Shown here: piece after piece, positions 1,348 through 62,675 of the stretch
Layout of the letters: each line of letters opens with the position of its first letter
How positions within the stretch are numbered: position 1 is the first letter of the stretch
Assembly (NCBI GenBank): GCA_001606155.1
Contig: LODT01000016.1
Coordinates: forward strand, 385,870 to 449,869
DNA from: Tieghemostelium lacteum
Lineage: Eukaryota
Direction: 5' to 3'
Length of the DNA stretch: 64,000 nt
The notes under the pieces: model-generated
The model's input: only the letters and a program-made list of their open reading frames with translations
Database searches by the model: none
Told to the model about the DNA's origin: nothing
Position numbers and translations under genes: made by a program

Positions 1348-1570
1348 AATCAGTATCCTCCATAGACACCTTCAACTTGTTTTGAAATACTTAAAATAAA
1401 AAAATAAACAACCAAAAAATCAACCCCCCCTTCCCCCTTTTTTATTCATTTAATGGTACCAATAGGCATCAATTAAAACTTTACAACAAATAACATGATT
1501 TACATTCTTTCAAAATTCATTTAAATTGGGTTCGAGGTATCAGGTTTTCCAATATACAAAATACTAATAC

Positions 1571-1590
1571 ACACCACACCCACCCCCCCT
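1571..1590. promoter_or_regulatory. C/A-rich element (acaccacacccaccccccct). Further C-tracts at 1421-1437 and 1659-1675 lie in an otherwise about 90% AT intergenic region
   Basis: Seen directly. It resembles the CAE/G-box class of GBF-type developmental promoter elements known from Dictyostelium. It lies upstream of the + strand gene starting at 1793. Confidence 0.3.
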
Positions 1591-1792
1591 CAATTATTAC
1601 TATTTTTTGACAAATCAATTTTGTGATAAAATATTTTAAAAGTGTGTTTCATCTACTCAACCCCCTTTCACCCCATTTTCAATATATAATATGTATTTTT
1701 CTTTTCTTTCTTTGTTTTACTTATTTATTGTTTTAGACTTATAAATTTATATTTATAAACTATAGAATTATTTATTTATAAATTAATTTATA

Positions 1793-2549: not shown

Positions 2550-2699
2550 TTAAAGAAGGCACAAACTGTGTCAAATTACAAAACCTCAAACAACACAACA
2601 TCTAAAACACAACACTGAATATTGAATTCTTTTCTTTTAATAAAACATTAAAATTACAATATTTTTAAAGAATACCTCTTAATCAATTATTTAACAACT

Positions 2700-3460
2700 A
2701 TAATAACAAAATAAATTTATCAAAATTAAAGAATGGAGATATAACAATTCACACACCAACCAATAGGATATCAAATTCAATATTAATCAGATTGAAACCA
2801 ATAGTTCAACAAATCAAAGGTTCAATCAACAAGAATGGAGGAATCACAATATTTGGAAATATCACAATTTGAAAAGATTCAACAATGATAATACTGAATT
2901 CAATATCATAAATCAACACAATTTTCCAATTTGTAATGATTACAAACAACAAATTGAAGAAAATAACACCATTATAATGTAATCATTCACCAACCAAATC
3001 AATTATCAACAATATATTCATCATTATAGATGATCAACAATCAATCAATATCAATAATAATAATATTATTGAATTTCTAAAACCAATTATTCAATCAATT
3101 CAATTTCAACAAGAATCATCAATATCAATTCTGAATATTTATGGATATAATTTCGGAATAGAAACATCATTCAAATTGGAGATCATTCTTCAGAATGATG
3201 AATTTTCAATCAATGAAATATCATTTAAAAATATTCAACTTTCAACTTCATTTGAATTTGAAGATTCACCAACAACTATCATCATTATTTTGAATAATCA
3301 ACAAAGTAATGAATTTCAAATTTATCCTTTAATAAACAAAATTGGGATTATAATTGGAGTTTCAATTGGATCAATTTCATTGATTTCAATTTTAATTTTA
3401 TCAATTATATTCATTAAACGAAGAAGAAATAAATTGAATTCAAATTCTTTAAAATCTTAA
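2700..3460 (+). pseudogene. Tgr-like IPT/TIG receptor, copy A: a 5'-truncated fragment carrying indels (homologous to 5211..5990 of copy B)
   Basis: Nucleotide alignment to copy B by eye shows several deletions (for example near 2858, 2975 and 3160) that break the frame. Only the last 94 codons (stalk+TM+stop, ORF 3176..3460) remain open. The fragment is preceded by the repeat-unit flank at 2560-2660. Confidence 0.55.
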
Positions 3461-3673
3461 TTTATCTTTTTATCATATTTTCTTTTTTTAATTTTTTACC
3501 CCACAAAATCAATAACAACAGTTTTTATCAAATTACAAAAAACCTCAAACAACACACCACATCAAAAACAATACCACTAAAAATGAATTCATTTCATTTA
3601 ATAAATCATTGAATTTACAATATTTTTAAATTGTATATTAAAATATACAATAGAATATTGATTTAAATTTAAT

Positions 3674-5990
3674 ATGATTCAACAACATTATCTATTATTC
3701 ATCATACTTAATATTTTAATATCACCAACAATCTCTCAAATATATGATATAGATTTTGAGATCAATACCCACGACGAATTAAAATTTAATGTAATGTTTG
3801 ATGTAACCAATCCCATTAATATCACTGAAATCAAAACAGATATCACCAATCAATCATACATTCCTTCTTGTGTAAATATTAGTTTAAATTCCCAACTATG
3901 TACAATTCAACTCAATCCAACATCACAATCAGAAAAATACACTTTCAATGATGTGAATAACCCAACAACACAATTTAAAAAGTTTGTAACACTTAAAAAT
4001 AAATTCAATTTGAAAATTGAATCACAACCAAAAACAAGAAATGAAACAATTATTAAATTCTCAGGATTATATTTTCAACCATATCCACCTGATTTTTATT
4101 ATTTAACAATCACAACAACCAATTTAAATATCAACAAAACATTCAGCAGTTCAGATGGTAAAATCAAATTCACATCACCAACAACATTTCAAATTGATAT
4201 TGGTGAATCTGTTGGTTATATAAATATATCAATGATAGAGAATACTTATCTATCACCTATTTGTCAACTTATTATCAAAGTATGTATTGATCAATTCTAT
4301 TTGATTAAGATATTTTTTTAACAATTAAACCAATTTTTCAGGACCAATTATTGAATCAATTGAATTTGAATCAAATCAAATCACAATAAGAGGTGATAAC
4401 TTTGGAAATTCAATTTATTTAGAATACATAATCATTAAAATGAATTCAACAATTCAAGATCAATCATCATTCTTTGAAAACAACAACAATATCATCATTT
4501 TCAACACATCACAAATCAATGATAACTTTACAAATCAATTTCAATTTGAAATTTCAATTGCAAATATTTCAAATTCAAATTATTTCATCTTTCAAAACAG
4601 TAAATATAATTTGATTAAATAATAGATTTAGATCATTTCTAATTACCTCACTTCAAATCTAAATAGGACCAACAATTGAATCAATTAACACAATTCCTTA
4701 TAAAGGAGGTGAAGTCACAATTTCAGGAAAGAGATTGAATTCTAAACGATTTGATAATTCATCATCTGAAATTGAAATTAAAATTGGTGATTATATTTGT
4801 TCATCACCTTCAAATATCAATAATGATGATAACACATCAATCAAATGTTATCTACCTTCATCATCAAATGATAATGATGAAAATCTTGAAATTTCAATCA
4901 AAATCGATTCAATTGAGAATTATCCATCACCAATCAAATTCACATTCAATAATCCTTCAATTTCAAGATATCAACATGAATATACCAATATTGATTCCAA
5001 TAACAATAATGATGATAGATTGATTATATTTGGTGATAATTTTGATAATTCAAAAGGAATAATTGATAAATCATCATTCACATTCAATGGAATCACAATT
5101 CAACTCAATAATACATTATTCACCAACAACAACAATAACAACAAAACAACTTTGATAATACCTCTATTTCAATTATTTAACAACAACAATATCAATAATA
5201 ACAATATAGATTTATCAAAATTAAAGAATGGAGATCTAACTATTCACACACCAACCAATAAGATATCAAATTCAATATCAATCAAATTGAAACCAATAAT
5301 TCAACAAATCAAAGGTTCAATCAACAAGAATGGAGGAATCATCACAATAATTGGAAAATATTTCAATTTGAAAAGATTCAACAATGATAATACTCAATTC
5401 AATATCATAAATCAACACAATATTCCAATTTGTAATGATTACAAACAACAAATTGAAGATAATAACACCATTAGAATTTGTAATCATTCACCAACCAAAT
5501 CAATTATCAACAATTTATTCATCATTATTGATGATCAACAATCAATCAATATCAACAATAATATTATTGAATTCCAAAAACCAATTATTCAATCAATTCA
5601 ATCTCAACAGGATTCATCAATATCAATTCTGAATATTTATGGATATAATTTCGGAATTGAAACATCATTGATTCAAATTCAAATTGGAGATATCATTCTT
5701 CAGAATGATGAGTTTTCAATCAATGAAATATCATTTGAAAATATTCAACTTTCAACTTCATTTGAATTTGAAATTCACCATTATCCATCACCATTATTGT
5801 GAATAATCAAAAAAGTAATGAATTTCAAATTTATCCTTTAATAAAGAATGATGAAACAATAAACAAAATTGGAATTATAATTGGAATTTCAATTGGATCA
5901 ATTTCATTGATTTCAATTTCAATTTTATCAATTATATTCATTAAACGAAGAAGAAATAAATTGAATTCAAATTCTTTAAAATCTTATCTC
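3674..5990 (+). pseudogene. Tgr-like IPT/TIG receptor, copy B: full-length three-exon copy with two frameshifts
   Basis: Exon 1 (3674..about 4279) has a 1-nt deletion relative to copy C just before the GTATGT donor (atttgtcaactt versus attttgacaactt), so the donor phase no longer matches exon 2 (4342..4599). Exon 3 (4667..) shifts frame at about 5770-5800 (FEFE|IHHYPSPLL*). The TM segment continues in ORF 5799..6146 and the stop is lost. Confidence 0.5.
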
Positions 5991-6217
5991 TTTCTTTTTT
6001 TAATTTTTTTTCATAACCCCACAGCAACCATATCAATAACAATTTTTATCAAATTACAAAAAACCTCAAACAACACACCCATCTATTTTTATCAACACCA
6101 CATCAAAAACACTTCACTTAAAAATGAATACATTTCAAATAATTGAAAGTAAAATATTATAAATTTAAATGAACAATAGTTAGAGATATACAAATAGAAT
6201 ATTGATTTAAATTTAAT

Positions 6218-8730
6218 ATGATTCAAAATCATTATCTATTATTATTCATACTTAATATATTAATATCAACATCAATCTCACAAATTAATTCTATTAATTT
6301 TGGGGGCAATTCAGATGATGATATAAAATTTTTGGTAAATTTTAATTTAAACAATCCCATTAATATCACTGAAATCAAAACTGATTTCACAAATCAATCA
6401 TACATTCCTTCTTGTATGAATGATAGTTTAAATTCCCAAATATGTACAATTCAACTCAATCCAACATCTCAATCAGAAAAATACACATTCATTGATGTGA
6501 ATAACCCAACAATACAATTTAACAGAATTGCAAGACTTGATAATAAATTCAATTTAAAAATTGAATCACAACCAAAAACAAGAAATGAAACAATTATTAA
6601 ATTCTCAGGATTATATTTTCAACCATATCCACCTGATTTTTATTATTTAACAATCACAACAACAAATTTAAATATCAATAAAACATTCAGCAGTTCAGAT
6701 GGTAAAATCAAATTCACATCACCAACAACATTTCAAATTGATATTGGTGAATCTGTTGGTGATATTAAAATATCAATTAAAGAGCCATCTTATCAATCAC
6801 CTATTTTGACAACTTATTATCAAAGTATGTATTGATCAATTTTATTTAATTAGGATCCATATTAATAATTAAAAAAATTTACAGGACCAATTATTGAATC
6901 AATTGAATTTGAATCAAATCAAATCACAATGAGAGGTGATAATTTTGGAAATTCAATTTATTTAGATTATATAGTCATTAAAATGAATTCAACAATTCAA
7001 GATAAATCATCAATCATTGAAAACAACAACAATATTATCATTTTCAACACATCTCAAATCAATGATAACTTTACAAATCAATTTCAATTTGAAATTTCAA
7101 TTGCAAATATTTCAAATTCAAATTATTTCATCTTTCAAAACAGTAAATATAATTTGATTAAATAATAGATTGAGATCATTTCTAATTAAATTCACTTCAA
7201 TTCTAAATAGGACCAACAATTGAATCAATCAATACTATTCCTTATAAAGGAGGTGAGATCACAATTTCAGGAAAGAGATTGAATTCTAAACGATTTGATA
7301 ATTCATTATCTGAAATTGAAATTGAAATTGGTGATTATATTTGCTCATCACCTTCAAATATCAATAATGATGATAATACATCAATCAAATGTAATCTAAC
7401 TTCATCATTAAATGAAAATGATGAAAATCTTGAAATTTCAATCAAAATTGATTCAATTGAGAATAATCCATCACCAATCAAATTCACATTCAATAATCCA
7501 ACAATTTCGAGTTATCAACATGAATATACCAATATTTATTCCAATAATGATGATAAATTGATTATATTCGGTGATAATTTTGATAATTCAAAAGGAATAA
7601 TTGATAAATCATCATTCACATTCAATGGAATCACAATTCAACTCAATAATACAATTTTCACTAATAACATCAATAACAACAAAACCACATTGATTTTACC
7701 TCTAAATCAAATATTTAGCAACAACAACAACAACAATAATAATATAGATTTATCACAATTAAAGAATGGAGATTTAACAATTCACACACCAACTAACAAG
7801 ATATCAAATTCAATATCAATCAAATTGAAACCTATAATTCAACAAATCAAAGGTTCAATCAACAAGAATGGAGGAATAATCACAATAATTGGAAAATATC
7901 TCAATTTGAAAAGATTCAACAATGATAATTCTCAGTTCAATATCATAAATCAACACAATATTTCAATTTGTAATGATTACAAACAACAAATTGAAGATAA
8001 TAACACCATTTTAATTTGTAATCATTTACCAACAAATTCAGTTATCAACAATTTGTTCATTATAATTGATGATCAACAATCAATCAATATCAACAACAAC
8101 AATAATATTATTGAATTTCAAAAACCAATTATTCAATCAATTCAATTTCAACAAAAATCACCATCAATTCTGAATATTTATGGATATAATTTCGGAATTG
8201 AAACATCATTAATTCAAATTCAAATTGGAGATATCATTCTTCAGAATGATGAATTTTCAATCAATGAAATATCATTTGAAAATATTCAAATTTCAACATC
8301 ATTTGGATTTTCAGATATACCAACACTCATCACCATAATTGTGAATAATCAATCCAGTAATGAGTTTCAATTTGATACTGAAAATAGAGGAAAATCTGGT
8401 CTATCTGCTGGGATTATAATAGGAATTGTTTTGAGTATTGTTTGTGTAGCTACAATAATTTTGTTAACTATACTATATAGAAGAAGAAAGAGTAGAGAAG
8501 TTTCAAAAGATAATGTTCAACCAGAATGTGAAATGAGAAATCTACCAAATATAATTGATACTATAGACAAAAAAACTGAAACTGATAAACCAGAACGTCC
8601 ACCTCTAGATGATAAAAGGGATATAAATATTGGAAGAGGTAACTCGGCCTTCGCAATAAGAAAACCAAAACCAATTCGTGGCTCTGATATGACAAAAAAA
8701 CTAGCTCCTTCAATTGACAATTCTGCATAA
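6218..8730 (+). CDS. Tgr-like secreted single-pass receptor with four IPT/TIG-like repeats, copy C (apparently intact); exons 6218..6824, 6885..7142, 7211..8730
   Basis: Signal peptide MIQNHYLLLFILNILISTSISQ. Phase-1 GTATGT donor at 6825 with AG at 6883-6884. GTAAAT donor at 7143 with AG at 7209-7210. IPT-like blocks start P-I-I/T-E-S-I... with GG-ITI-G-NF cores. TM GLSAGIIIGIVLSIVCVATIILLTIL is followed by a basic-acidic cytoplasmic tail of about 80 aa. Confidence 0.6.
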
Positions 8731-21938: not shown

Positions 21939-24900
21939 ATGGTCACTACAATAATCCATAAATTTATTTATATTTGTATTATAATATTTCATTTTGGTAA
22001 GTATATTATTGAATTATATTAACAATATTGAAATATTAATATGCTTAATGAAAAGGTGTGATAAATGGTCAATTTAGATTTCTGGATTTAGTGGTACCTG
22101 GAAGTAATAATGTATATGGTTCGGATGATATTGGATGTGAATATTTTATAAAATTTCAATCCTATGATGAAAGTGTAAATGTAATTTATATATATGAGAC
22201 ACCACCTAGATATCTTGGATCCACATTACAAGGAATACATTCCCTCTATGCAGAGTTGACTTTTAGATCTGCTGTAGGGTCTAATTTAAATGTGTCATTA
22301 CAGTTTAGAGATAGTAATAATCCATTGCAATATAATGTAATCTATGAAGTAAATGATTTATACTGGTTTCCAGTCTGTGAAAGACAACCATATCCTCTAG
22401 ATAACTATGCAACTGAACTATTCTATACACCTGGTGAATCCTACACCTTTTACTATGTCATGAAATTTCTTGATCTTGTAAAATTTGCAAAATTGACATT
22501 TAGTCAGACTTCATCACCAAACTTTTACAAGTGTAGTGGTGAGTGGTTGAATATGAAATATTATCTGGTGACTTGTAATTTTGTAGTTGAACCTGGTGAT
22601 ATATCAGCTACTATTCCTGTGACTATTGAATATAGATTGACTAATAATGAAAACAGCTACCAGACCTATTCCGTGGCATCTTATATGAATAATGGTCAAT
22701 TTCCAATCAGTGATATAATACAGAGATTCTATCCGAATGATACTATTGGTATTTATCAGTGGCCTAATAAATTCTATCAAGAGTTGACAGTTACCAATCC
22801 ACCCTCTAATATATATAGATATATAGTACCATTGAATGTTGCTACTAGTCTGCCTCCTGGAACTTTTGTAAAATATAATCCATATGAAACCATGTTTATA
22901 TATGGAAATTTGTCCACTAGGACTTATATAGACACTGTATCTGTTCCTGATATTGATAGTTCTGTGTATTTCCAACCGTTGACTTTAGATAATATGGTTG
23001 CTCAATCTGTGTTTACAGGGTCACCTAGAGAGTACAATGTAATGGGGTCCTATTCAAAACCTCAATTTTCATTATTAACAACAACAATCTCTACTTTGCT
23101 AGTCCTAGATCAAAGATACCAAGTTCAATATTCATTTTCACCATTCTATTGGTACAGAATGAATATTAATGAGTATAGTAGAATAATGTTTTATGAGTTT
23201 CCCTACGGTATAACATCTATTGTACCTTATAGAACTCTGAATGAATACACATTGGAAGTACCATTAACAGTGTATTCAACTGATATTTCCTATTATAGAG
23301 ATGGTGTAATATCAGATTACAGCTATATAGGGTCACTGGTAGACACAGCAGCACCTCGTTTGGAACCTATGGAATTTGAATATGTAAATTCACAAGAATT
23401 AACATTAATAAGATTGATTGCCTCTGATATGTCATCAGGATTCTCATTTATTGAATTCTATTTTGTTGATAGTAATGATAATAGATTTGAAACTATATTT
23501 CAAGTGACTTCAGAGGATTTGGTAGATGGTAGTGTCAATGATGGTGTATATGAAACTCTTGTAAAACCATATAAATTCTATTCACCAGAGTACAGTATCA
23601 AAGCAACTTATTCAGACCAAGTAGGTAACATAGGTGACATTTCAGAAGGTATTAGTTTTATACCTGATTTTCCATTTTTGGTAGATAACAAGAATCAGTT
23701 AGTTGGTAACTCTAATATCACAATTACAAGTTTTTCATTCTTGGAGAATGAGGTGAATCTAACTAGTGATGGTTTTACCAATGTATTGAAATTTACATGT
23801 GCAGGTACACCAATGAATTCATTTGTCTCTATAGGACTTGTATTTGATGCTGGTAGTGAATACTATGAAAGATTCTTTGGATCTTTTGACACAGTTGAAC
23901 AGGTTTATAAAATTGAATTTTATCTTCCACCTAGACTACAAAGTGGGCCTATTCAGTATTTTATTGAAGGACAGTATTTTAAATTCTCATATATAGCGTT
24001 AAGAGCTATAACCAATTTACCAACGAACTTATCTGTGGTTAGTAACTGGTCAGAGAGATTTCCACCAATGGTTACTAATCTAGTACCGTTTTCAGAGACT
24101 GTTAATGGTATTATTAAATGTAGTTTTAATATCACCATTGAAGATCAAGGAAACGGATTCAAAAGTGGTATTGTTAGTATTTGGTCTGATATAGATCCAC
24201 AATTAAGAAACTTCACATTGTCATCCAATGGATATAACAAGTATTTAGATACTTATCAGATATCATTTACACTCAACCAGAGTGAATGTGTAAATCAGTC
24301 ATTTGAAATCTATTACCTATCATTAACAGACACTAATAATCTAACATCGGATTCAAGTGGGAATCTAAAATTTAACTCATTTATGAAGATTCTAGATACC
24401 ATTCAGGGTTCTTTAACTATTGAAGATTGTCAATCACCACCATCTACAATAAATCCTACACTTACCAATCTAACTATACTCAATAATCTGCCTATTAACG
24501 TTGGGTCCAGTCAAAGAGACTTCGATATATTATTTGAAGTTACTGATTCCTCAGTACCTGTATCTAAACATCATATTCCGTATTGTTATATCTCTACTAT
24601 ATTCCTACGACAAATTAAGGTTCCATCAGTATTTGTGCAGTTCTTAGATAGCTCTAAACTAATAGCTCAATGGAGATGTTCAGGTAGTGTACCATATGGT
24701 TTTGGTGCTAGATCTATTGGAGGTGAAGGTAATAACTTAACAATTAGTATCTATGGATTTGCTAATATTGGTCTATCATTCGGTGGGTCGTCTAATACAT
24801 TTAATGGGTACTATTTAACTACTGAATTTAATATCAGTCCTATAATTGAAGATATAAAATTATCTCCAATGCCTGGGTTATCAAGGTACTTGAAAATGGA

Positions 24901-26188
24901 TATATTTGGAAGACAATTGAAAGGAGTGTTACCAAAGCTGAATATTCTCTACCAAGATTCCATATATCCTGATGTTTTAGAAATTACTTATCAAAGTTAC
25001 ACTTTTATGAGTGGTATAAGAGTTAGATCTAATGTTGGATATGCTAATGTCACTGTAAGATTTAATGACACTCAAACAAATACATTTACCATTTTCACTG
25101 GAAATCCACCTGTTACACCGTCACCTGAATCTCCAAAATGTCAAGGCACACCTGAATGTGGAGGTCCTTCTAATGGGTTGTGTACAGACAGAGGATGTCA
25201 ATGTAAAAGTCCTTGGATTGGACCTACATGTCAATCTCAAATTGTAATCATAACCCCTCCATATATAAACACAACATCACCTACCATTGACAATGATTTC
25301 AATGTTACTTTACCTGATGGTGAAATTGTGTCTTTGAGAAACCTCATTTCCATAGTACAACTTAACGAATACAATTATCAAGGTCAACTGAAATCATCAT
25401 TTCAGTTTACCAGATGGAAATTCACAAATACCACACTTTCAAATCAAACTGATTATCAAGAGTATCTCTATGAATCTGAGATTGCAAATAAGAAATCTAA
25501 TATTACAGTTACCATTCAATACTATAATAAGAAAATGGAAATTACATTTGCCAATGAAAACCTAGTAATGCAACCATCTTCTATAAAGTACAAGATATTT
25601 ATAGATGGATATGCATTTGAAAGTTCACTAAATTATTTGGAATTGGTAATGTCAGTAGCACTGGAATCTTTGGATACTGATGATGACCAATGCTCTCTGT
25701 CACAATTTGGAACTTCAAATGAAGGAGAAAATTCTCAAAATGATTTTGTTAAATTACAAATTGGAGAACATTCACTCTATGGTAGATTCATTAGACGTGG
25801 TATTATAGACGGTAATCGTATAACTAACGTAACTAATAGATTGGTATCTACACAAGATCTAGGACTTAATCCAGTACAACAACAATACTATAAATCACAA
25901 GAATTCATTAGTATGAGAATTCCAAATTTTCATTCCAATTCCACTCTAGATCCTGATTTTAGTGTACTTATTGATACTTCCACCGTAGATAACAAAAATT
26001 CAAATTCAGTATGTTCCAACAATCATTCAAAATCAGGTTTAACTAAATCTAAATTAGCAGGTATCATTATAGGATCCATTTTATTTGCATTAGCAATAGT
26101 CATCATCACCATCTATATAATTAACAAATCTAGAAAACATAAACTTTTCATAAAGAATCTCAATGAAAAGGCACAAGAATTTCAATAA
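21939..26188 (+). CDS. Large type I transmembrane glycoprotein (about 1396 aa) with a membrane-proximal EGF-like module; exons 21939..21996 and 22056..26188
   Basis: Micro-exon ATG at 21939 encodes MVTTIIHKFIYICIIIFHF, then a phase-1 GTAAGT donor at 21997. The acceptor aaaAG at 22054-22055 joins in frame to ORF 22058. The product is a signal peptide, a long N-glycosylation-rich ectodomain, a Cys-rich EGF-like block (CQGTPECGGPSNGLCTDRGCQCKSPWIGPTCQ), TM LAGIIIGSILFALAIVIITIYII and a short basic tail. Confidence 0.55.
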
Positions 26189-55148: not shown

Positions 55149-57402
55149 TTAGTTTTCAGGAAGTTCATATTGTTTGAAATTATCATTTTTAAGACCCATT
55201 CTTGCTTTTCTTCTTCTTTCTTCTAGAGCATATCTTTTATAGAATATTACAAATACTACAGCTAGAGTAATGGCACAGACTGCTGCTAATACTATTCCAA
55301 CTATAATTCCAACAGACAGTTTTGATTCTGAACCACTGTTGGAACTTTCACTACTTATCTTATTAGGTATAGTTATTTCCATTACATTACTAGGTTGATT
55401 ATTAATAATTACAGATAACTGTTGTGTTGGTTGCTGATTATTTAATTTAATTTGAATGGTTTCAAATGTTAATTCGGTGATGGTGTATTGGTCTGGAGTT
55501 AGAATTGTATTTCCAATTTTAATTTGAATTAATGATTGATCATTTCCGAAATTCTCACCATTTAGAAAAATAGATGAACTATCAAATTGGTATTCAAATG
55601 AATGAATGATTGGTGATAGGAATGCGATTTTAATATCAGCATTAGATTGTTTACCATCAATTGAAACAATAATATTATTAATTACTGATGTTGTTGGTAA
55701 ATGAGTACAAATGATATTATTATCATTATTTTGTGATGGATCATAACATGATGTGTTGTTTTGTAGATTCATAATCTTTAAAACAGTATTTTCATTGTTG
55801 AATCTCTTCATATTTAGATATTTACCAATGATTGTGATTATTCCTCCATTCTTGTTGATAATTCCTTTAATTTCTTGAATTGATGGAATTAATTTAACAG
55901 GGATTGGATTAGTTGATTTACTATAAGGTGTATATACAATTATATCGCCATTTAGAATATTACTATCATTGAATAGTTGAGGTAATGATAATATTAATGA
56001 TGATTTACTACAATTTGCAATTGTATTCAATTTAATAACTTTTGAATTGAGAGTGAAATTACTACTGATCATTAATTGTTGTGAATTATCAAAATTATCA
56101 CCAAGAATTGTAATTGTATTATTAATATCTTGTTCAACTTTGGTGACTTTAGGAAGATAATAAGTGAATTTAAATGGAGGTATATCAGCTTGAACTGAAT
56201 CAATTGATAATGAAATTGGAAGATTTTCATCATTTTCAAAACCTTGAGGCATTGTACATTTCAATGTTGTGAATTTAACATCATCAATATTTGTTGGTGA
56301 TGAACATATTTTATTCCCCATTTTAATGAGGATATCAGAGGATGTTCCATTTTGTCTTTTACAATTCAAATTTTCACCTGTAATTGTAACTTCTCCACCT
56401 GAATATGAATTCAAATTACTTATAGCTGTGAGTTTTGGTTCTATAAAATTAAAATGGTGTTAGGAAAAAAATTTTGTTTTAACATATTTAAATATTTTAT
56501 TTTACATACTTGTCAATACTTTAAATGATGAAAGAGTAGAAATATTTGCGATAAAAAAATCAAAATCATAAGAATTCGAGAAATATTCAATAGATGGATA
56601 TTTTAAAATCACCTTATTATTTGAATATTCAAGATATGATGTTTGATTCTGACCAATTGAATTTATCAAAATATTTGAATAATTTGAAAATTTCGAATCT
56701 CCGAAATTATCACCAGTAATAGTAATATTATCTCCTAAAAAATTTATTGATTCTATAATTGGACCTATAAATATTGTTAGTTTTATATAAATATTTAACT
56801 AAACTATTAAACATACTTTGATAAGAAGTTTTTAAATTTTGTGTTAAAAATGCTAGTTCTATTGAATATTCAATTTCACCAACTGAATCACCTACATCAA
56901 TCTCAAATGTTGTAGAATTAATGAATGTTATATTTCCTAGTGAACTATTGAATGTTCTAGTTTCATTTAAGTTTTTTATGTTGATAAAAAGATTAAAATT
57001 AGGTGGGTATGGCTGGAAATATAAACCTGAGAATCTAAGAATTGAATTGGTATCTGGTTTTGGTTGTGATTCAACTTTTAAATTGAAAGTTTTTAATCCT
57101 ACAAAAATTGAAGAGTCTAAAGTTGGGTGGTTCTCATCATATATATAATACTTTTCTGTTTGTGAAGTTGGTTTAAGTTGAATTGTACAATTTAATTTAG
57201 ATGCCAATAAATAATAACAGTTAGGTATATATGTTTGATTTGTAAAATCAGTTGTGATTTTTGAGATATTAACAGGGTTACTAGCAAGGTATATAATGAA
57301 ATTTAATTTGGATTCTAAATTTTCTTCAAAATTAACTGATATTATTTGGGAGAAAATTGGTGATATAAGAAATAAACAATAAATTATAATTAAATATTTC
57401 AT
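55149..57402 (-). CDS. Tgr-like IPT/TIG receptor, copy D (apparently intact); exons 56817..57402, 56510..56764, 55149..56440
   Basis: Signal peptide MKYLIIIYCLFLISPIFSQ. GTATGT donors at 56816 and 56509 and acceptors tatAG at 56765 and 56441, all phase 1. Exon 3 has three IPT-like repeats, TM LSVGIIVGIVLAAVCAITLAVVFVIFY and tail KRYALEERRRKARMGLKNDNFKQYELPEN. Confidence 0.6.
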
Positions 57403-57589
57403 TGTTAAAATAAGTAAAAAATAAATATAAATATAAAATGATTTTGATAAATTTGTAAATTTAAAAATTTTTAGTTGCAAAAAATAGCTTAAGGTGTTGA
57501 AAAGGGTATTTTGGTTTTTTTTCTTAAAAATAGATTTTTAAATAATTTAATTAGAAAATAACAATATAAACTTAGACTATTTTTATACT

Positions 57590-58100
57590 ATTGGTTAAGG
57601 TTTATCTTATTCACTCTAGAACCTATATAATCCTTGAATTTTTTTATTTCTTTTCTTTCTTTTGATTTTTTATATTTTATTTTCTATATTAGCAAGGGAT
57701 AGTAGGACGCCTGTCTGTAAAACTGGAAATTAGGGTGCAACCCCTGTGGAGAGATTTTTATTTTATTGACCCTAAAAATAATCTTTAGAATTCTTCAAAA
57801 TCACCACTACCACCATCATAATCACTATCATCGGTGTCATCTTTTCGTTTTTGAACTTCATCTGTCCCTAAATGTCTTATCATCATAATCGACAGAAATT
57901 TCTTTGAGAGATATGTCGAACTTATGTTTTTTCTGTGGTGCAGTCAATTTTTAAATTAAAAATATTTCAACTGCAATAAATGGAAAAGGTAACAAAACTC
58001 CTAATAAAAGCTCAGTAGATGGTTTTGAAATTGTGAATCACCTACATCAATCTCAAATGTTGTAGAATTAATGATTGTTATATTTCCAAGTGACACCTAG
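57590..58100 (-). pseudogene. Scrambled Tgr-like debris: a 3'-end piece (57590..57660), unrelated GC-richer filler, and exon-3/exon-1-like pieces (57890..58100)
   Basis: Short stretches align to 58195..58345 (3' end of copy E) and 56885..56945 (exon 1 of copy D). No continuous frame. Confidence 0.35.
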
Positions 58101-58170
58101 GCTATTATATTTCCTAGTTAATTTTACTAAGATTCTAAAAATGTAAACAATATATGTTATTTTTATACTA

Positions 58171-60397
58171 TTATTGGTTAGGTTTTTTCTGATTCACTGT
58201 AGAATCTATAAAATCCTTGAATCTTTTTATTTCTTTTTTTACATTTGATCTTGTATAAAGTTTTAAAATTAAAAATATTATAACTGCAATAAATGGAAGA
58301 GGTAACAAAATACCTAATAAAAGATCAATTTGTGATTTTTTAAATGTGGCTCTTTCAGTTGGTTTTGGTGGAATATAAATTTCCAATGAATTACTTATTT
58401 GTTGATTTACAATAATTGTAATATCTTGTGTTGTTTTCAGTGATACTAGTTGAAATTCAACTTTTTCGAATGTTAATTGAGTAATGGAGTATTGGTCTGG
58501 AGTTAAAATTGTATTTCCAATTTTAATTTGAATTAATGATTGATCATTTCCGAAATTCTCGCCTTTAAGAATGATAGATGAAATTTCAGATTGGTATTCA
58601 AATGAATGAATGATTGGTGATTGGAATTCGACTTTAATATCTGTAATAGATTGTTTACCATCAATTGAAACAATGATATTATTAATTACTGATGTTGTTG
58701 GTAAATGAGTACAAATGATATTATTATCATTATTTTGTGATGGATCATAACATGATGTGTTGTTTTGTAGATTCATAATCTTTAAAACAGTATTTTCATT
58801 ATTGAATCTCTTCATATTTAGATATTTACCAATGATTGTGATTATTCCTCCATTCTTGTTGATAATTCCTTTAATTTCTTGAATTGATGGAATTAATTTA
58901 ACAGGGATTGGATTAGTTGATTTACTATAAGGTGTATATACAATAATATCACCATTTAGAATATTACTATCATTGAATAGTTGAGGTAATGATAATATTA
59001 ATGATGATTTACTACAATTTGCAATTGTATTCAATTTAATAACTTTTGAATTGAGAGTGAAATTACTACTGATCATTAATTGTTGTGAATTATCAAAATT
59101 ATCACCAAGAATTGTAATTGTATTATTAATATCTTGTTCAACTTTGGTGACTTTAGGAAGATAATAAGTGAATTTAAATGGAGGTATATCAGCTTGAACT
59201 GAATCAATTGATAATGAAATTGGAAGATTTTCATCATTTTCAAAACCTTGAGGCATTGTACATTTCAATGTTGTGAATTTAACATCATCAATATTTGTTG
59301 GTGATGAACATATTTTATTCCCCATTTTAATGAGGATATCAGAGGATGTTCCATTTTGTCTTTTACAATTCAAATTTTCACCTGTAACTGTAACTTCTCC
59401 ACCTGAATATGAATTCAAATTACTTATAGCTGTGAGTTTTGGTTCTATAAAAATTTTCAGTTGTTAGGATATTAATTTTGTTTGTTCATTTCCTATTGTA
59501 CATACTTGTCAATACTTTAAATGATGAAAGAGTAGAAATATTTGCGATAAAAAAATCAAAATCATAAGAATTCGAGAAATATTCAATAGATATAGATTTT
59601 AAAATCACCTTATTATTTGAATATTCAAGATAAGATGTTTGATTCTGGCTGATTGAATTTATCAAAATATTTGAATAATTTGAAAATTTCGAATTTCCAA
59701 AATTATCACCAGTAATAGTAATATTATCTCCTAAAAACTTTACTGATTCAATTATAGGCCCTATAATTGGGTTAGATAAGATTTTAAGTGGTCTAAATTA
59801 ATTCCACATACCTTGATAAGAAGTTTTGTAAATTGGTAAGGTAATATATTGATCAGTCATGGAGTATTCAATTTCACCCACCGAATCACCAACATCAATT
59901 TCAAATGAGGTAGAATTAATGAATGTTATATTTCCTAATAAACTATTAAATGATTTGGTTTCATTCAAATTTGTTATGTTGATTACTAAATTAAATATAG
60001 GATAGGGCTGGAAATATAGACCTGAAAATCGAAGAATAGAGTTGTTATTTGGTTTTGGTGTTGATACAACTAGTAAATTGAATTTTTTAAACATGACAAA
60101 AATGGATGTGCTTATTGTAGGGTGATTTTCATCATATATAAAATACCTTTCAGTTTGAGAAGATGGTAAAAGTTCAATTGAACAATTTATACTAGAACCA
60201 TATTTTATACAACTAGGTATATATGTTTGATTTGTAAAATCAGTTGTAATTTTAGTGATATTTACTAGGTCAGTAGAAGCTAATTGTAATCTGAATTTTA
60301 AGTAGGTTTCAGAGTTCTCTTCATAATTGACCACTGATATTTGGGTGAAAATTGGTGAAATTAAACTTAAACAATATAGTAGAATTATATATTTCAT
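58171..60397 (-). CDS. Tgr-like IPT/TIG receptor, copy E (apparently intact); exons 59812..60397, 59506..59760, 58171..59444
   Basis: Signal peptide MKYIILLYCLSLISPIFTQ. Donors at 59811 (GTATGT; intron 51 nt) and 59505 (GTATGT), and acceptors at 59761 and 59445. Its TM/tail cassette (LLLGILLPLPFIAVIIFLILKLYTRSNVKKEIKRFKDFIDSTVNQKKPNQ) differs from copy D despite a near-identical ectodomain. Confidence 0.6.
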
Positions 60398-60592
60398 ATT
60401 TTAATTAAATATAATTATGTTTTTTAAAATTTTTAAAAATAATTTATAAACTATAGTTTAAAAATAGTTCAGGTGTTGTTTGGAAATTTAGGTTTTTACA
60501 AATTCTAAAAATAGATTTAATATTGGTATATTTAAATAATATTAAATATTTATTTAAATAAAAAATCTACACAATATATGCTATTTTTACTA

Positions 60593-61870
60593 TTATTGGC
60601 TTGGATTTTTCTGATTCACTGTAGGATCTATAAAATCCTTGAATCTTTTTATTTCTTTTCTTTCATTTGATCTTGTATAAAGTTTTAAAATTAAAAATAT
60701 CGCAACGGCAATAAATGGAAGAGGTAACAAAATACCTAATAAAAGATCAATTTGTGATTTTGAAATGGTGGCTTTTTCAGTTGTTTTTAGTGGAATATAA
60801 ATTTCCAATGAATTACTTATTTGTTGATTTACAATAATTGTAATATCTTGTGTTGTTTTCAGTGATACTAGTTGAAATTCAACTTTTTCGAATGTTAATT
60901 GAGTAATGGAGTATTGGTCTGGAGTTAAAATTGTATTTCCAATTTTAATTTGAATTAATGATTGATCATTTCCGAAATTCTCACCATTTAGGATGATAGA
61001 TGAAATTTCAGATTGGAATTCAAATGAATGAATGATTGGTGATTGAAATGCAACTTTAATATCAGTATTAGATTGTTTACCATCAATTGAAACAATGATA
61101 TTATTAATTACTGATGTTGTTGGTAAATGAGTACAAATGATATTATTATCATTATTTTGTGATGGATCATAACATGATGTGTTGTTTTGTAGATTCATAA
61201 TCTTTAAAACAGTATTTTCATTATTGAATCTCTTCATATTTAGATATTTACCAATGATTGTGATTATTCCTCCATTCTTGTTGATAATTCCTTTAACTTC
61301 TTGAATTGATGGAATTAATTTAACAGGGATTGGATTAGTTGATTTACTATAAGGTGTATATACAATAATATCACCATTTAGAATATTACTATCATTGAAT
61401 AGTTGAGGTAATGATAATGTTAATGATGATTTACTACAATTTGCAATTGTATTCAATTTAATAACTTTTGAATTGAAAGTGAAATTACTACTGATCATTA
61501 ATTGTTGTGAATTATCAAAATTATCACCAAGAATTGTAATTGTATTATTAATATCTTGTTCAACCTTGGTGACTTTAGGAAGATAATAAGTGAATTTAAA
61601 TGGAGGTATATCTGCTTGAATTGAATCAATTGATAATGAAATTGGAAGATTTTCATCATTTTCAAAACCTTGAGGCATTGTACACTTTAATGTTGTGAAT
61701 TTAACATCATCAATATTTGTTGGTGATGAACATATTTTATTCCCCATTTTAATGAGGATATCAGAGGATGTTGGAATAATCATTGATCATTTCCAAAATT
61801 CTCACCTTTTAGAATGATAGATGAGCTATTGGATTGGTATTCAAATGAATGAATTAACTGTGGAAATCAC
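60593..61870 (-). pseudogene. Tgr-like copy F: 5'-truncated (exon 3 only, from mid first IPT repeat) plus an inverted/rearranged 85-bp exon-3 fragment at 61784..61870
   Basis: ORF 60593..61783 is about 97% identical to copy E exon 3 but starts at ...TSSDILIKMGNK. Sequence 61784..61870 matches an internal piece of exon 3 (about 60958..61040) out of context. No exons 1-2 lie upstream. Confidence 0.5.
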
Positions 61871-62554
61871 ATATGTTTGTAGTGGTGTATAACTATACAT
61901 GAAAGTTGTTTAAAATATGTATTAAATTGTAAACTGTTTATATATATATTCATTATCAGTTGAGTATATTGCTCTTCTTTAATATGAATCATCATCTTCA
62001 TCATCTTCATCATCTTCATCCCTAGATAAAGATTCACCACTTATTCATCATTACCTATATCCAATCAGATATTTCATATTCTCAGAATCACTTTTTGAAT
62101 CTTCTTTAAGACCTAAATACTGGTTATTACTTTGAGAAGATCTACATGGAATGGTTTCTCTTTAATCCAGATTTGTGATATACACATAGTAAAAATTTTT
62201 TTGTTTTAATCTGGAGCTCTAAATGGTTGTCAAGTGTATAAAACGCTCTAAACTCTTTAAACACTTTCTACAATTACTTTAACATTCCACACTTGTTTAC
62301 CACACATGCATTTATTAAATTACCAAAATTAAGAATTTGAATGAGGAATAAACGTGGGAATACGTTATTATTGTAAAAGATAAATTTATAGTGTAATAAT
62401 AAACAAATCTAGGAATATCTCCACCACAAGTTGGGAATTTCCCCGCTCTATAATTTGGGAGAAAATAGGTGATAAATAAATAATTATATATTTCATATTT
62501 TTTAAAATAAGTATACTTCATACTATGATGTTATATGTATTATAACTTATCATA

Positions 62555-62675
62555 GTAACAATAGATGGAGAGTTTAAAATCACCTTATTATTCGAATATT
62601 CAAGATATGATGTTTGATTCTGACTGATTGAATTCATCAAAATATTTGAATAATTTGAACTCCCTAGTACTGATC
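62555..62675 (-). pseudogene. Orphan fragment of Tgr-like exon 2
   Basis: Aligns to 56580..56690 and 59585..59690 (…NKVIL..SISQNQTSYLEYSNN…). Confidence 0.35.

What the first reader, a model, noticed from the sequence alone, without database searches (positions are those of the whole stretch)
55149..62675. Second, inverted array of the same receptor family at the other edge of the window
On the minus strand there are two intact three-exon copies (D 55149..57402, E 58171..60397), a 5'-truncated copy (F 60593..61783) and at least three orphan fragments (57590..58100, 61784..61870, 62555..62675). Exon 1 products are about 45% identical to the plus-strand copies, so this is the same family but a different subfamily. 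Two inverted arrays bracket about 46 kb of ordinary genes. Inverted paralogous arrays are substrates for inversion or gene conversion and suggest a rapidly evolving locus.
Basis: seen in the sequence. Interest (0 to 1): 0.7.

Follow-up and report, generated by a model that had tools for sequence, protein, structure and literature searches.

The report
Tandem Tgr-like surface receptor gene cluster
This is a real but fairly ordinary cluster of duplicated cell-surface adhesion/recognition-type genes (two intact, several decayed) in the social amoeba Tieghemostelium lacteum, whose copies keep overwriting each other's middle parts while keeping different ends.

Summary
On the minus strand of 55149-62675 lie two intact three-exon genes (D, 710 aa; E, 704 aa), a 5'-truncated copy (F) and at least four decayed fragments. 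The window is Tieghemostelium (Dictyostelium) lacteum. D and E are already in GenBank (KYR00242.1, KYR00243.1) as IPT/TIG domain proteins.

Each encodes a type I membrane glycoprotein: signal peptide, an N-terminal domain of about 176 aa with no Pfam match, five IPT/TIG domains, one transmembrane helix and a short tail. That is the architecture of the dictyostelid Tgr ("tiger") family. They belong to a T. lacteum-specific clade and are not tgrB1/tgrC1 orthologues.

They are 46-49% identical to the plus-strand copies, so same family, different subfamily.

The new result is a mosaic. Synonymous divergence between D and E is 0.66 in exon 1, 0.02 in the exon 3 core (a 436-nt perfect run) and about 1 in the tail. 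This shows gene conversion within the array.

The two inverted arrays share only 64-65% nucleotide identity, with 29 nt as the longest exact match. They are not sister clades, so they are poor substrates for inversion or conversion today.

Tgr-type clusters with gene birth-and-death and mosaicism are already described in D. discoideum. Verdict: a new member of a known kind, of modest interest.

The parts
55149..57402 (-). Gene D (KYR00242.1), intact. Exons 57402..56817, 56764..56510, 56440..55149; 710 aa. Signal peptide, N-terminal domain of about 176 aa, five IPT/TIG domains, transmembrane segment at about residues 653-683 with a GxxxG motif, tail of about 30 aa.
   Evidence: The spliced translation is open. 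It is 100% identical to an NCBI protein. Pfam TIG hits. Hydropathy and 18 N-X-S/T sequons.
58171..60397 (-). Gene E (KYR00243.1), intact. Exons 60397..59812, 59760..59506, 59444..58171; 704 aa. Same ectodomain core as D, but a different exon 1 (70% amino-acid identity) and an unrelated transmembrane segment and tail.
55690..56440 (-). Homogenised tract in exon 3 of D, corresponding to E 58694..59444. It covers IPT2 to IPT4, is 99.5% identical to E and contains a 436-nt perfect run. F carries the same tract at 96-100%.
56441..56509 (-). Intron 2 of D. It is only 72% identical to intron 2 of E, although the last 87 nt of exon 2 and the first 56 nt of exon 3 are identical. Homogenisation skips the intron.
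   Evidence: Control: intron 2 of B and C is 94% identical.
60593..61783 (-). Copy F, a 5'-truncated pseudogene. It retains only exon 3 from D residue 313 onwards and has the E-type tail. dS to E is 0.06.
61784..61854 (-). Fragment of exon 3 (the IPT5 region, D residues about 558-582) fused directly to the truncated 5' end of F. This is a rearrangement junction.
   Evidence: blastn 88.7% to 55537..55607; tblastn.
62449..62521 (-). Remnant of the start of exon 1 (signal peptide 'MKYIIIYLSPIFSQII'), followed by about 600 nt unrelated to the family.
62559..62659 (-). Orphan exon 2 (IPT1) fragment, the outermost remnant of the array.
   Evidence: blastn 94% to D and 93% to E; tblastn 88% over 33 aa.
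57428..58093 (-). Remnant copy X between E and D. An exon 1 piece (58093..58034) abuts an E/F-type transmembrane piece (58035..57948). An unrelated 273-nt insert follows (57947..57675). Last comes an E/F-type tail end and 3' flank (57674..57428).
   Evidence: No RNA family or tRNA was found in the insert.
2672..8730 (+). The plus-strand array of the sister subfamily, given for comparison. A is a fragment at 2672..3460. B is a frameshifted pseudogene at 3674..about 6146, partly annotated as KYR00218.1. C is intact: exons 6218..6824, 6885..7142, 7211..8730; 794 aa.

Best explanation
The region is a head-to-tail tandem cluster of lineage-specific Tgr-like genes in Tieghemostelium lacteum. Each intact gene encodes a heavily N-glycosylated type I membrane protein. 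An N-terminal domain without a Pfam match (exon 1) sits on a stalk of five IPT/TIG immunoglobulin-like domains, followed by one transmembrane helix and a short cytoplasmic tail.

The cluster evolves by gene birth and death. Tandem duplication produced at least five copies. Two remain intact, and the others were truncated, internally deleted or interrupted.

Non-allelic gene conversion or unequal crossing-over within the array repeatedly homogenises the central stalk (IPT1 to IPT4/5). Exon 1 keeps its old divergence, as does the module made of the end of IPT5, the transmembrane segment and the tail. The paralogues are therefore mosaics: the same stalk with different tips and different membrane and cytoplasmic ends.

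Shown: gene structures, domain content, homology relationships, the mosaic divergence pattern and the pseudogene anatomy.

Inferred by analogy with the D. discoideum Tgr family: the products act in cell-cell adhesion or recognition during aggregation, the N-terminal domain carries binding specificity, and the alternative tails couple to different intracellular partners.
For: Organism and annotation: D is 100% identical to KYR00242.1 and E to KYR00243.1, both from T. lacteum.

Architecture:
- Pfam TIG, E = 3e-17 for the whole protein. Each of the five units was also scanned separately; four score E = 1.5e-8 to 5e-4 and IPT3 only 0.072. Three of the five (IPT1, IPT2, IPT4) exceed the curated cut-off of 20.9 bits, IPT5 falls just short at 20.4 bits and IPT3 is well below at 13.5 bits. 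IPT2 has a sub-threshold hit to Ig_TgrO1.
- Hydrophobic N-terminus, a single transmembrane window and 18-19 sequons.
- An all-beta AlphaFold2 model with a C-terminal helix at 657-697 (low confidence).

Family:
- A profile search gave 206 hits. The best full-length hits whose names I looked up are all from T. lacteum, and several have consecutive accessions, which suggests further clusters.
- More distant hits come from Polysphondylium violaceum, Cavenderia, D. purpureum and D. discoideum.
- hhalign to the D. discoideum IPT/TIG protein Q54CT7: probability 97%, 439 aligned columns, 27% identity.

Mosaic and conversion:
- Nucleotide identity and dS by segment.
- A 436-nt perfect run against a permutation mean of 46 and maximum of 109.
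- E and F are 92-100% identical including the tail.
- The same pattern of a shared core with an unrelated tail appears in B/C and in KYQ91794/KYQ91795 on another contig.

Literature:
- Tgr genes form clusters of duplicates and pseudogenes with birth-and-death evolution and mosaicism. The tgrA cluster is unpaired and on one strand (bioRxiv 10.1101/2025.10.22.684067; PMC12745789).
- D. lacteum has 76 IPT/TIG proteins, described as part of a large variable Tgr adhesion family (PMC4931340).
Against: - There are no expression, localisation or polymorphism data for these genes, so the adhesion/recognition role rests on family analogy.
- Similarity to D. discoideum IPT/TIG proteins is weak (27% identity, E = 1e-5 to 1e-11). 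I could not confirm that those hits carry tgr names.
- The genes are not arranged in the head-to-head pairs typical of tgrB/tgrC.
- The AlphaFold2 model has low confidence (mean pLDDT 57).
- The genome was assembled from 454 reads at 29-fold coverage (PMC4931340). Part of the perfect identity among three copies 3 kb apart could be consensus mixing.
- Overall dN/dS in exon 1 is 0.34, with no clear sign of positive selection.
Confidence: 0.85

Rival explanations
1. One reading: the two inverted arrays act as a pair of inverted repeats. They currently exchange sequence with each other or drive inversion of the intervening 46 kb.
For: The arrays are homologous and in opposite orientation. Inversions and intralocus recombination are documented at the D. 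discoideum tgrBC locus (PMC12745789). A single ancient inversion with one breakpoint inside an ancestral array could have produced the present layout; this is inference.
Against: Nucleotide identity is 64-65% over 2 kb and the longest exact match is 29 nt. dS between arrays is 0.74-1.96 in every segment, with no young tract. The closest relative of C is on another contig (87-88%), and D/E/F is the outlier clade.
Confidence: 0.1
2. The near-perfect identity of the exon 3 core among D, E and F is an assembly artefact. Reads from three paralogues were merged into one consensus, and the true copies are more different.
For: The assembly used 454 reads at 29-fold coverage with Newbler (PMC4931340). 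Short-read data are reported to be unreliable for tgr paralogues because of cross-mapping (bioRxiv 10.1101/2025.10.22.684067). Divergent segments such as intron 2 would escape such mixing, which could mimic 'exon-only' homogenisation.
Against: The copies keep copy-specific differences inside the core: 4 D/E differences, and further F-specific ones. Divergence is graded (99.5%, 94%, 92%) rather than all-or-none. The contigs were finished with fosmid ends and primer walking. The same mosaic is seen in the B/C pair at 94-96%, where collapse is not an issue.
Confidence: 0.12
3. D and E form a functional allorecognition pair analogous to TgrB1 and TgrC1. They would have distinct binding tips and distinct tails, making this locus the kin-recognition locus of T. 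lacteum.
For: There are two intact neighbours with diverged N-terminal domains (70% identity) and unrelated tails on an identical stalk. The family architecture is that of Tgr proteins. tgrB1 and tgrC1 themselves are absent outside group 4 (PMC4931340), so another Tgr clade would have to serve this role if the species discriminates kin.
Against: The genes are head-to-tail with unrelated 5' flanks (59% identity), not head-to-head with a shared promoter. Exon 1 dN/dS is 0.34. There are no polymorphism or expression data. T. lacteum has 76 IPT/TIG proteins and several similar clusters, so nothing singles out this one.
Confidence: 0.12
4. The differences between exon 1 and the core reflect selection on a recent duplicate, with rapid adaptive divergence of exon 1 and the tail, rather than conversion of the core.
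For: Recognition domains often evolve fast. One 30-codon window in exon 1 has pN/pS of about 1.
Against: Synonymous divergence itself differs about 30-fold (0.66 against 0.02), and introns 1 and 2 are at the 'old' level of 71-72%. Selection on protein sequence cannot produce this pattern.
Confidence: 0.03

Closest known systems
[quoted passage not shown]
   Same: - Signal peptide, IPT/TIG repeats, a single transmembrane segment and a short tail.
- Clusters of close duplicates mixed with pseudogenes.
- Birth-and-death evolution, intralocus recombination and mosaic genes.
- Lineage-specific expansions with few orthologues between species.
   Different: - A different species group (group 3) and a T. 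lacteum-specific clade.
- Only about 27% identity to D. discoideum IPT/TIG proteins.
- Shorter proteins (about 700 aa with five IPT units) than TgrB1/C1 (about 890-900 aa).
- Three-exon structure in which exon 2 encodes exactly one IPT domain.
- No functional data.
tgrB1-tgrC1 allorecognition (greenbeard) pair of D. discoideum
   Same: Neighbouring polymorphism-prone IPT/TIG membrane proteins. Paralogues differ in their extracellular tip and in their cytoplasmic part. The locus is prone to duplication and recombination.
   Different: - tgrB1 and tgrC1 are head-to-head with a shared promoter. D and E are head-to-tail with unrelated upstream regions.
- tgrB1 is restricted to group 4 and tgrC1 to D. 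discoideum (PMC4931340).
- The DL homologues that paper lists for tgrB1 and tgrC1 are other proteins of 846 and 799 aa.
- Neither polymorphism nor binding was tested.
Other T. lacteum IPT/TIG clusters (KYQ91794/KYQ91795; KYQ93829-KYQ93834; KYQ93376/KYQ93377; KYQ93635)
   Same: The same family, with profile E-values from 1e-34 to below 1e-200, and consecutive accessions that suggest tandem clusters. KYQ91794 and KYQ91795 show the same pattern of a 92-100% identical core with an unrelated transmembrane segment and tail.
   Different: D/E/F is the most divergent clade, at 44-49% identity to all the others. I could not fetch the genomic layout of the other clusters.
Paired receptor families of animal immunity (KIR, Ly49, SIRP, PILR): near-identical ectodomains with alternative signalling tails, maintained by gene conversion
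   Same: Clustered paralogues have homogenised ectodomain segments and unrelated transmembrane and cytoplasmic modules.
   Different: This is analogy only. There is no homology, no recognisable signalling motifs in the tails and no functional evidence. The comparison rests on my own knowledge of those families.

Membership tests
Tgr-like (dictyostelid IPT/TIG single-pass membrane proteins, broad sense) | N-terminal signal peptide | tested here: met
   D, E and C begin with a hydrophobic stretch, MKYLIIIYCLFLISPIFSQ in D. For D this is a Kyte-Doolittle window above 2.0 at residues 3-5 and a helix at 3-12 in the model. No dedicated signal-peptide predictor was available.
Tgr-like (dictyostelid IPT/TIG single-pass membrane proteins, broad sense) | Repeated extracellular IPT/TIG (Ig E-set) domains | tested here: met
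   PF01833 scores E = 3.4e-17 for the whole protein, 62.6 bits against a cut-off of 20.9. Five units were scanned separately, with E = 3e-5, 1.5e-8, 0.072, 4.7e-5 and 5e-4. IPT2 has a sub-threshold hit to PF24612 Ig_TgrO1 (E = 0.0011).
Tgr-like (dictyostelid IPT/TIG single-pass membrane proteins, broad sense) | Single C-terminal transmembrane segment and a short cytoplasmic tail | tested here: met
   One hydrophobic window, at residues 653-683 in D and 651-678 in E. Model helix at 657-697. Tails are about 30 aa.
Tgr-like (dictyostelid IPT/TIG single-pass membrane proteins, broad sense) | Detectable sequence homology to D. discoideum family members | tested here: inconclusive
   The profile hits D. 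discoideum IPT/TIG proteins Q7KWM8 and Q54CT7 (E = 1.6e-5 and 7e-8). hhalign probability is 97% over 439 columns. I could not verify that these two carry tgr gene names, and TgrB1/C1 sequences were not compared directly.
Tgr-like (dictyostelid IPT/TIG single-pass membrane proteins, broad sense) | Genomic organisation in clusters of duplicates and pseudogenes | tested here: met
   Two intact genes plus F, X and three further fragments lie within 7.5 kb. A second array lies at 2.7-8.7 kb.
tgrB1/tgrC1-type allorecognition pair | Head-to-head gene pair with a shared promoter | tested here: not met
   D, E and F are all on the minus strand, head-to-tail. The 5' flanks of D and E are 59% identical, which is effectively unalignable.
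tgrB1/tgrC1-type allorecognition pair | Orthology to tgrB1 or tgrC1 | tested here: not met
   All close relatives are from T. lacteum. The literature restricts tgrB1 to group 4 and tgrC1 to D. discoideum, and lists other DL proteins (846 and 799 aa) as the homologues of tgrB1 and tgrC1 (PMC4931340).
tgrB1/tgrC1-type allorecognition pair | Extreme polymorphism between strains, and developmental co-expression | not testable with these tools
   Only one T. lacteum genome was available. The expression tables in PMC4931340 use DLA_ identifiers that I could not map to these genes.

The most novel reading that the evidence does not exclude
T. lacteum has independently built a modular 'paired receptor' system. 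At three or more loci (D/E, B/C, KYQ91794/KYQ91795), neighbouring genes share a conversion-homogenised IPT stalk but carry alternative N-terminal tips and unrelated transmembrane/cytoplasmic cassettes.

The homogenisation would be confined to exons: intron 2 of D and E stays at the old 72% identity between two 100%-identical exon ends. Either diverged introns act as barriers to conversion, or spliced RNA/cDNA templates are used.

If so, this locus could be part of a recognition system in a group 3 dictyostelid that does not depend on tgrB/tgrC. It would also be a natural example of exon-restricted concerted evolution.
Probability: 0.12. Interest if true: 0.6.

Novelty: new member of a known kind. 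Interest (0 to 1): 0.3.

Why it matters
Kin recognition in social amoebae is understood only for tgrB1/tgrC1 of D. discoideum, and those genes do not exist outside group 4. How other dictyostelids tell kin from non-kin is open.

Lineage-specific Tgr-like clusters such as this one are the obvious candidates. The mosaic seen here is a conserved stalk with an old, diverged tip and swappable tails. It shows that the diversification machinery described for D. discoideum (duplication, pseudogenisation, intralocus conversion) also operates in a distant group 3 species.

In practice, the locus offers a compact pair of intact paralogues (D and E) for testing which module carries binding specificity. 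As it stands, it extends a known pattern and is not a surprise.

Tried and rejected
- tRNA and Rfam scans of the array and of the 273-nt insert in remnant X found nothing. A tRNA-like look of 57700-57760 was therefore dropped.
- tblastx of the two unrelated inserts (57675-57947 and 61855-62448) against the window gave only low-complexity acidic-repeat matches. No transposon could be assigned.
- The look-up of encoding contigs for KYQ93635, KYQ91794 and D itself returned nothing. The genomic layout of the other T. lacteum clusters could only be inferred from consecutive accession numbers.
- The spliced product of C could not be submitted to the structure or representative searches. An alignment of database proteins was used instead.
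- The AlphaFold2 model is of low confidence (pLDDT 57), and the afdb50 fold library was unavailable. No fold comparison was attempted.
- No solved structure is detectable by sequence.
- A 'mirror symmetry' idea held that the innermost copies C and D share a tail type and the outer copies share another. It is only half supported. The transmembrane segments and tails of C and D are 40% identical over 50 aa, but the E/F and A/B tails are unrelated to each other.
- A shared recombination breakpoint right after the invariant 'SFE' motif holds for D/E and for KYQ91794/KYQ91795. In B/C the break lies about 30 residues further on.
- A sliding-window dN/dS over exon 1 found no convincing positive selection.
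- Expression could not be looked up because the gene identifiers differ.

Full report
**1. What is there**

The window is AT-rich (24-35% G+C) and its genes have short GT-AG introns. The spliced product of the first minus-strand gene is 100% identical to GenBank KYR00242.1, 'IPT/TIG domain-containing protein [Tieghemostelium lacteum]', from a contig of 563,479 bp. The sequence is therefore from the group 3 social amoeba formerly called Dictyostelium lacteum.

- D has exons 57402..56817, 56764..56510 and 56440..55149, giving 710 aa.
- E has exons 60397..59812, 59760..59506 and 59444..58171, giving 704 aa and matching KYR00243.1.
- F (61783..60593) is an open 396-aa remnant that aligns only to residues 313-694 of D.

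tblastn and blastn confirm the orphan pieces and refine them.
- An internally deleted copy, X, lies between E and D. An exon 1 piece (58093..58034) abuts an E/F-type transmembrane piece (58035..57948). An unrelated 273-nt insert follows. The last piece is an E/F-type tail and 3' flank (57674..57428).
- An IPT5 piece (61854..61784) is fused to the truncated 5' end of F.
- A remnant of the exon 1 start lies at 62521..62449.
- An exon 2 piece lies at 62659..62559.

The array once held at least five copies, of which two remain intact.

**2. What the genes encode**

D carries, in order:
- a hydrophobic N-terminus;
- a region of about 176 aa, encoded by exon 1, that matches no Pfam family;
- five units that each match IPT/TIG when scanned separately. 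IPT1, IPT2 and IPT4 clear Pfam's curated cut-off, IPT5 just misses it (20.4 against 20.9 bits) and IPT3 is weak (E = 0.072). IPT2 also touches the TgrO1-like Ig model below threshold;
- one transmembrane window (residues 653-683);
- a tail of about 30 aa.

It has 18 N-X-S/T sequons. Exon 2 is a symmetrical phase 1-1 exon that encodes exactly IPT1. An AlphaFold2 model is all-beta with a C-terminal helix, but its confidence is low (pLDDT 57). No solved structure is detectable by sequence.

**3. Family relationships**

A profile search of 1.8 billion cluster representatives gave 206 hits. The best full-length hits whose names I looked up are all from T. lacteum. Several have consecutive accession numbers on the same contig (KYQ93829-93834, KYQ93376/7, KYQ91794/5), which suggests further clusters. 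Weaker hits come from Polysphondylium violaceum, Cavenderia fasciculata, D. purpureum and D. discoideum. A profile comparison with the D. discoideum IPT/TIG protein Q54CT7 gives 97% probability over 439 columns at 27% identity.

The literature describes this class.
[quoted passage not shown] The paper's Table 4 counts 76 proteins with an IPT/TIG domain in D. lacteum. tgrB1 is restricted to group 4 and tgrC1 to D. discoideum (PMC4931340).
- That paper's supplement lists other DL proteins, of 846 and 799 aa, as the DL homologues of tgrB1 and tgrC1.

D/E/F is therefore a lineage-specific clade of Tgr-like proteins and not an orthologue of the allorecognition pair.

**4. Relation to the plus-strand array**

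D and E are 46-49% identical to B and C in exon 1, and 47-48% in the exon 3 core.

The arrays are old relatives, however.
- dS between them is 0.74-1.96 in every segment.
- Nucleotide identity is 64-65%, and the longest shared exact stretch is 29 nt, which encodes the INKNGGIITI motif.
- In neighbour-joining trees, C pairs with KYQ93635 from another contig (87-88%), and D/E/F is the most divergent clade.

They are not a recent inverted duplication and are poor substrates for homologous exchange today. An ancient inversion that split one ancestral array remains possible but is untestable here.

The 46 kb between them holds housekeeping-type genes: APC8/Cdc23, a chromodomain protein, an XPG-type nuclease, a protein kinase, RRP7, a short-chain dehydrogenase, a SET/MYND protein, a pseudouridine synthase and an O-methyltransferase. 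It also holds one large ComC-like surface protein.

**5. Mosaic structure within the array (the main new result)**

D compared with E, by segment:

| Segment | Nucleotide identity | dS |
|---|---|---|
| 5' flank | 59% | |
| Exon 1 | 77% | 0.66 (dN/dS 0.34) |
| Intron 1 | 71% | |
| Exon 2 | 94% | 0.15 |
| Intron 2 | 72% | |
| Exon 3, first 751 nt | 99.5% | 0.02 |
| Exon 3, next 210 nt | 92% | 0.13 |
| End of IPT5, transmembrane segment, tail, 3' flank | about 53% | near saturation |

The longest perfect run is 436 nt. When the 232 differences were redistributed 10,000 times, the longest run averaged 46 nt and never exceeded 109 nt.

A roughly 30-fold difference at synonymous sites cannot come from selection on the protein. 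It indicates non-allelic gene conversion or unequal crossing-over that homogenises the IPT stalk while the tip and the membrane/cytoplasmic module keep their older divergence. The alternative reading of the same mosaic is that those ends were acquired from other copies.

E and F are 92-100% identical including the tail, with dS 0.06, so they are a more recent duplicate pair.

The same 'shared core, unrelated tail' pattern recurs.
- In B/C, the core is 94-96% identical and the tail 51%.
- In KYQ91794/KYQ91795 on another contig, the core is 92-100% identical, then identity drops to 57% and 27%. The cytoplasmic tails are 7 aa and about 120 aa.

The transmembrane segment and tail of D resemble those of C (40% over 50 aa, with a GxxxG motif). 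The E/F tail is a separate type.

**6. An unexplained detail**

The last 87 nt of exon 2 and the first 56 nt of exon 3 are identical between D and E. The 61-69-nt intron between them nevertheless has 17 substitutions and an 8-nt indel. Only the splice donor, a CTAAC branch-site-like motif and the acceptor are shared.

In B/C, intron 2 is as similar as the flanking exons (94%), so introns are not intrinsically fast-evolving here.

The simplest reading is that the diverged intron acts as a homology barrier, which confines conversion tracts to each exon. A spliced template and assembly consensus mixing are alternatives. This rests on a single intron.

**7. Caveats**

- The reference genome was assembled from 454 reads at 29-fold coverage, with fosmid ends and primer walking. 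Some of the perfect identity among copies 3 kb apart might be consensus mixing. The graded divergence and the copy-specific differences within the core argue against wholesale collapse.
- No expression or polymorphism data could be linked to these genes.

**8. Comparison with what is known, and verdict**

Clusters of tgr duplicates and pseudogenes are documented in D. discoideum and its relatives. So are birth-and-death evolution, mosaic genes, intralocus recombination and same-strand unpaired clusters such as tgrA (bioRxiv 10.1101/2025.10.22.684067; PMC12745789).

The present locus is a new example in a distant species, and its intact genes are already annotated. It meets the structural definition of a Tgr-like protein. 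It fails the tests for being a tgrB1/tgrC1-type pair: it is not head-to-head and not orthologous.

I rate it a new member of a known kind, with interest 0.3. The residual interest lies in the recurrent tail-swapping and the exon-restricted homogenisation.

Noticed in passing
window 56441-56509 (D intron 2) and 59445-59505 (E intron 2): Intron 2 is only 72% identical between D and E, with an 8-nt indel, while the flanking 87 nt of exon 2 and 56 nt of exon 3 are 100% identical. Homogenisation appears confined to exons. In the B/C pair the intron is as conserved as the exons (94%).
   Followed up: partly
window 6218-8730 (+): By my three-exon model (6218..6824, 6885..7142, 7211..8730; 794 aa), plus-strand copy C is intact. 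No identical or near-identical protein was returned from the 5.8-billion-protein database, although its neighbours B (KYR00218.1, partial), D and E were. C may be missing from the public annotation.
   Followed up: partly
window 3674-6146 (+): Plus-strand copy B is a pseudogene. A 1-nt deletion near the end of exon 1 shifts the frame into exon 2, and a second frameshift lies near 5800. It is nevertheless partly annotated as a 431-aa hypothetical protein, DLAC_03374.
   Followed up: partly
T. lacteum proteins KYQ91794.1 / KYQ91795.1 (P0004 / P0009; contig of 884,058 bp): A probably adjacent gene pair at another locus shows the same design as D/E and B/C. The ectodomain core is 92-100% identical, and homology is then lost abruptly after the 'SFE' motif of the last IPT domain. 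The cytoplasmic tails are 7 aa and about 120 aa.
   Followed up: partly
window 22058-26188 (+): A 1376-aa ORF in the 'ordinary' 46-kb interval carries a ComC supersandwich domain plus DUF7035, DUF7743 and DUF7949. It is another large dictyostelid surface/communication-type protein, lying between the two arrays.
   Followed up: no
window 57675-57947 and 61855-62448: Two inserts unrelated to the family interrupt decayed copies. Both contain short acidic (Asp/Glu-rich) coding-like stretches, but they show no significant similarity to each other, to any RNA family or to the rest of the window. Their origin is unknown.
   Followed up: partly
window 5284-5312, 7836-7864 and the three minus-strand copies (for example around 55850): A 29-nt stretch, ATCAACAAGAATGGAGGAATAATCACAAT, encodes INKNGGIITI at the start of IPT4. 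It is the only long exact match shared by both arrays, and the motif is invariant across the whole family alignment.
   Followed up: no
window 1400-1700: Upstream of the plus-strand array lie unusual C-rich runs (cccccccttcccc, cacaccacacccaccccccc) in an otherwise AT-rich intergenic region.
   Followed up: no
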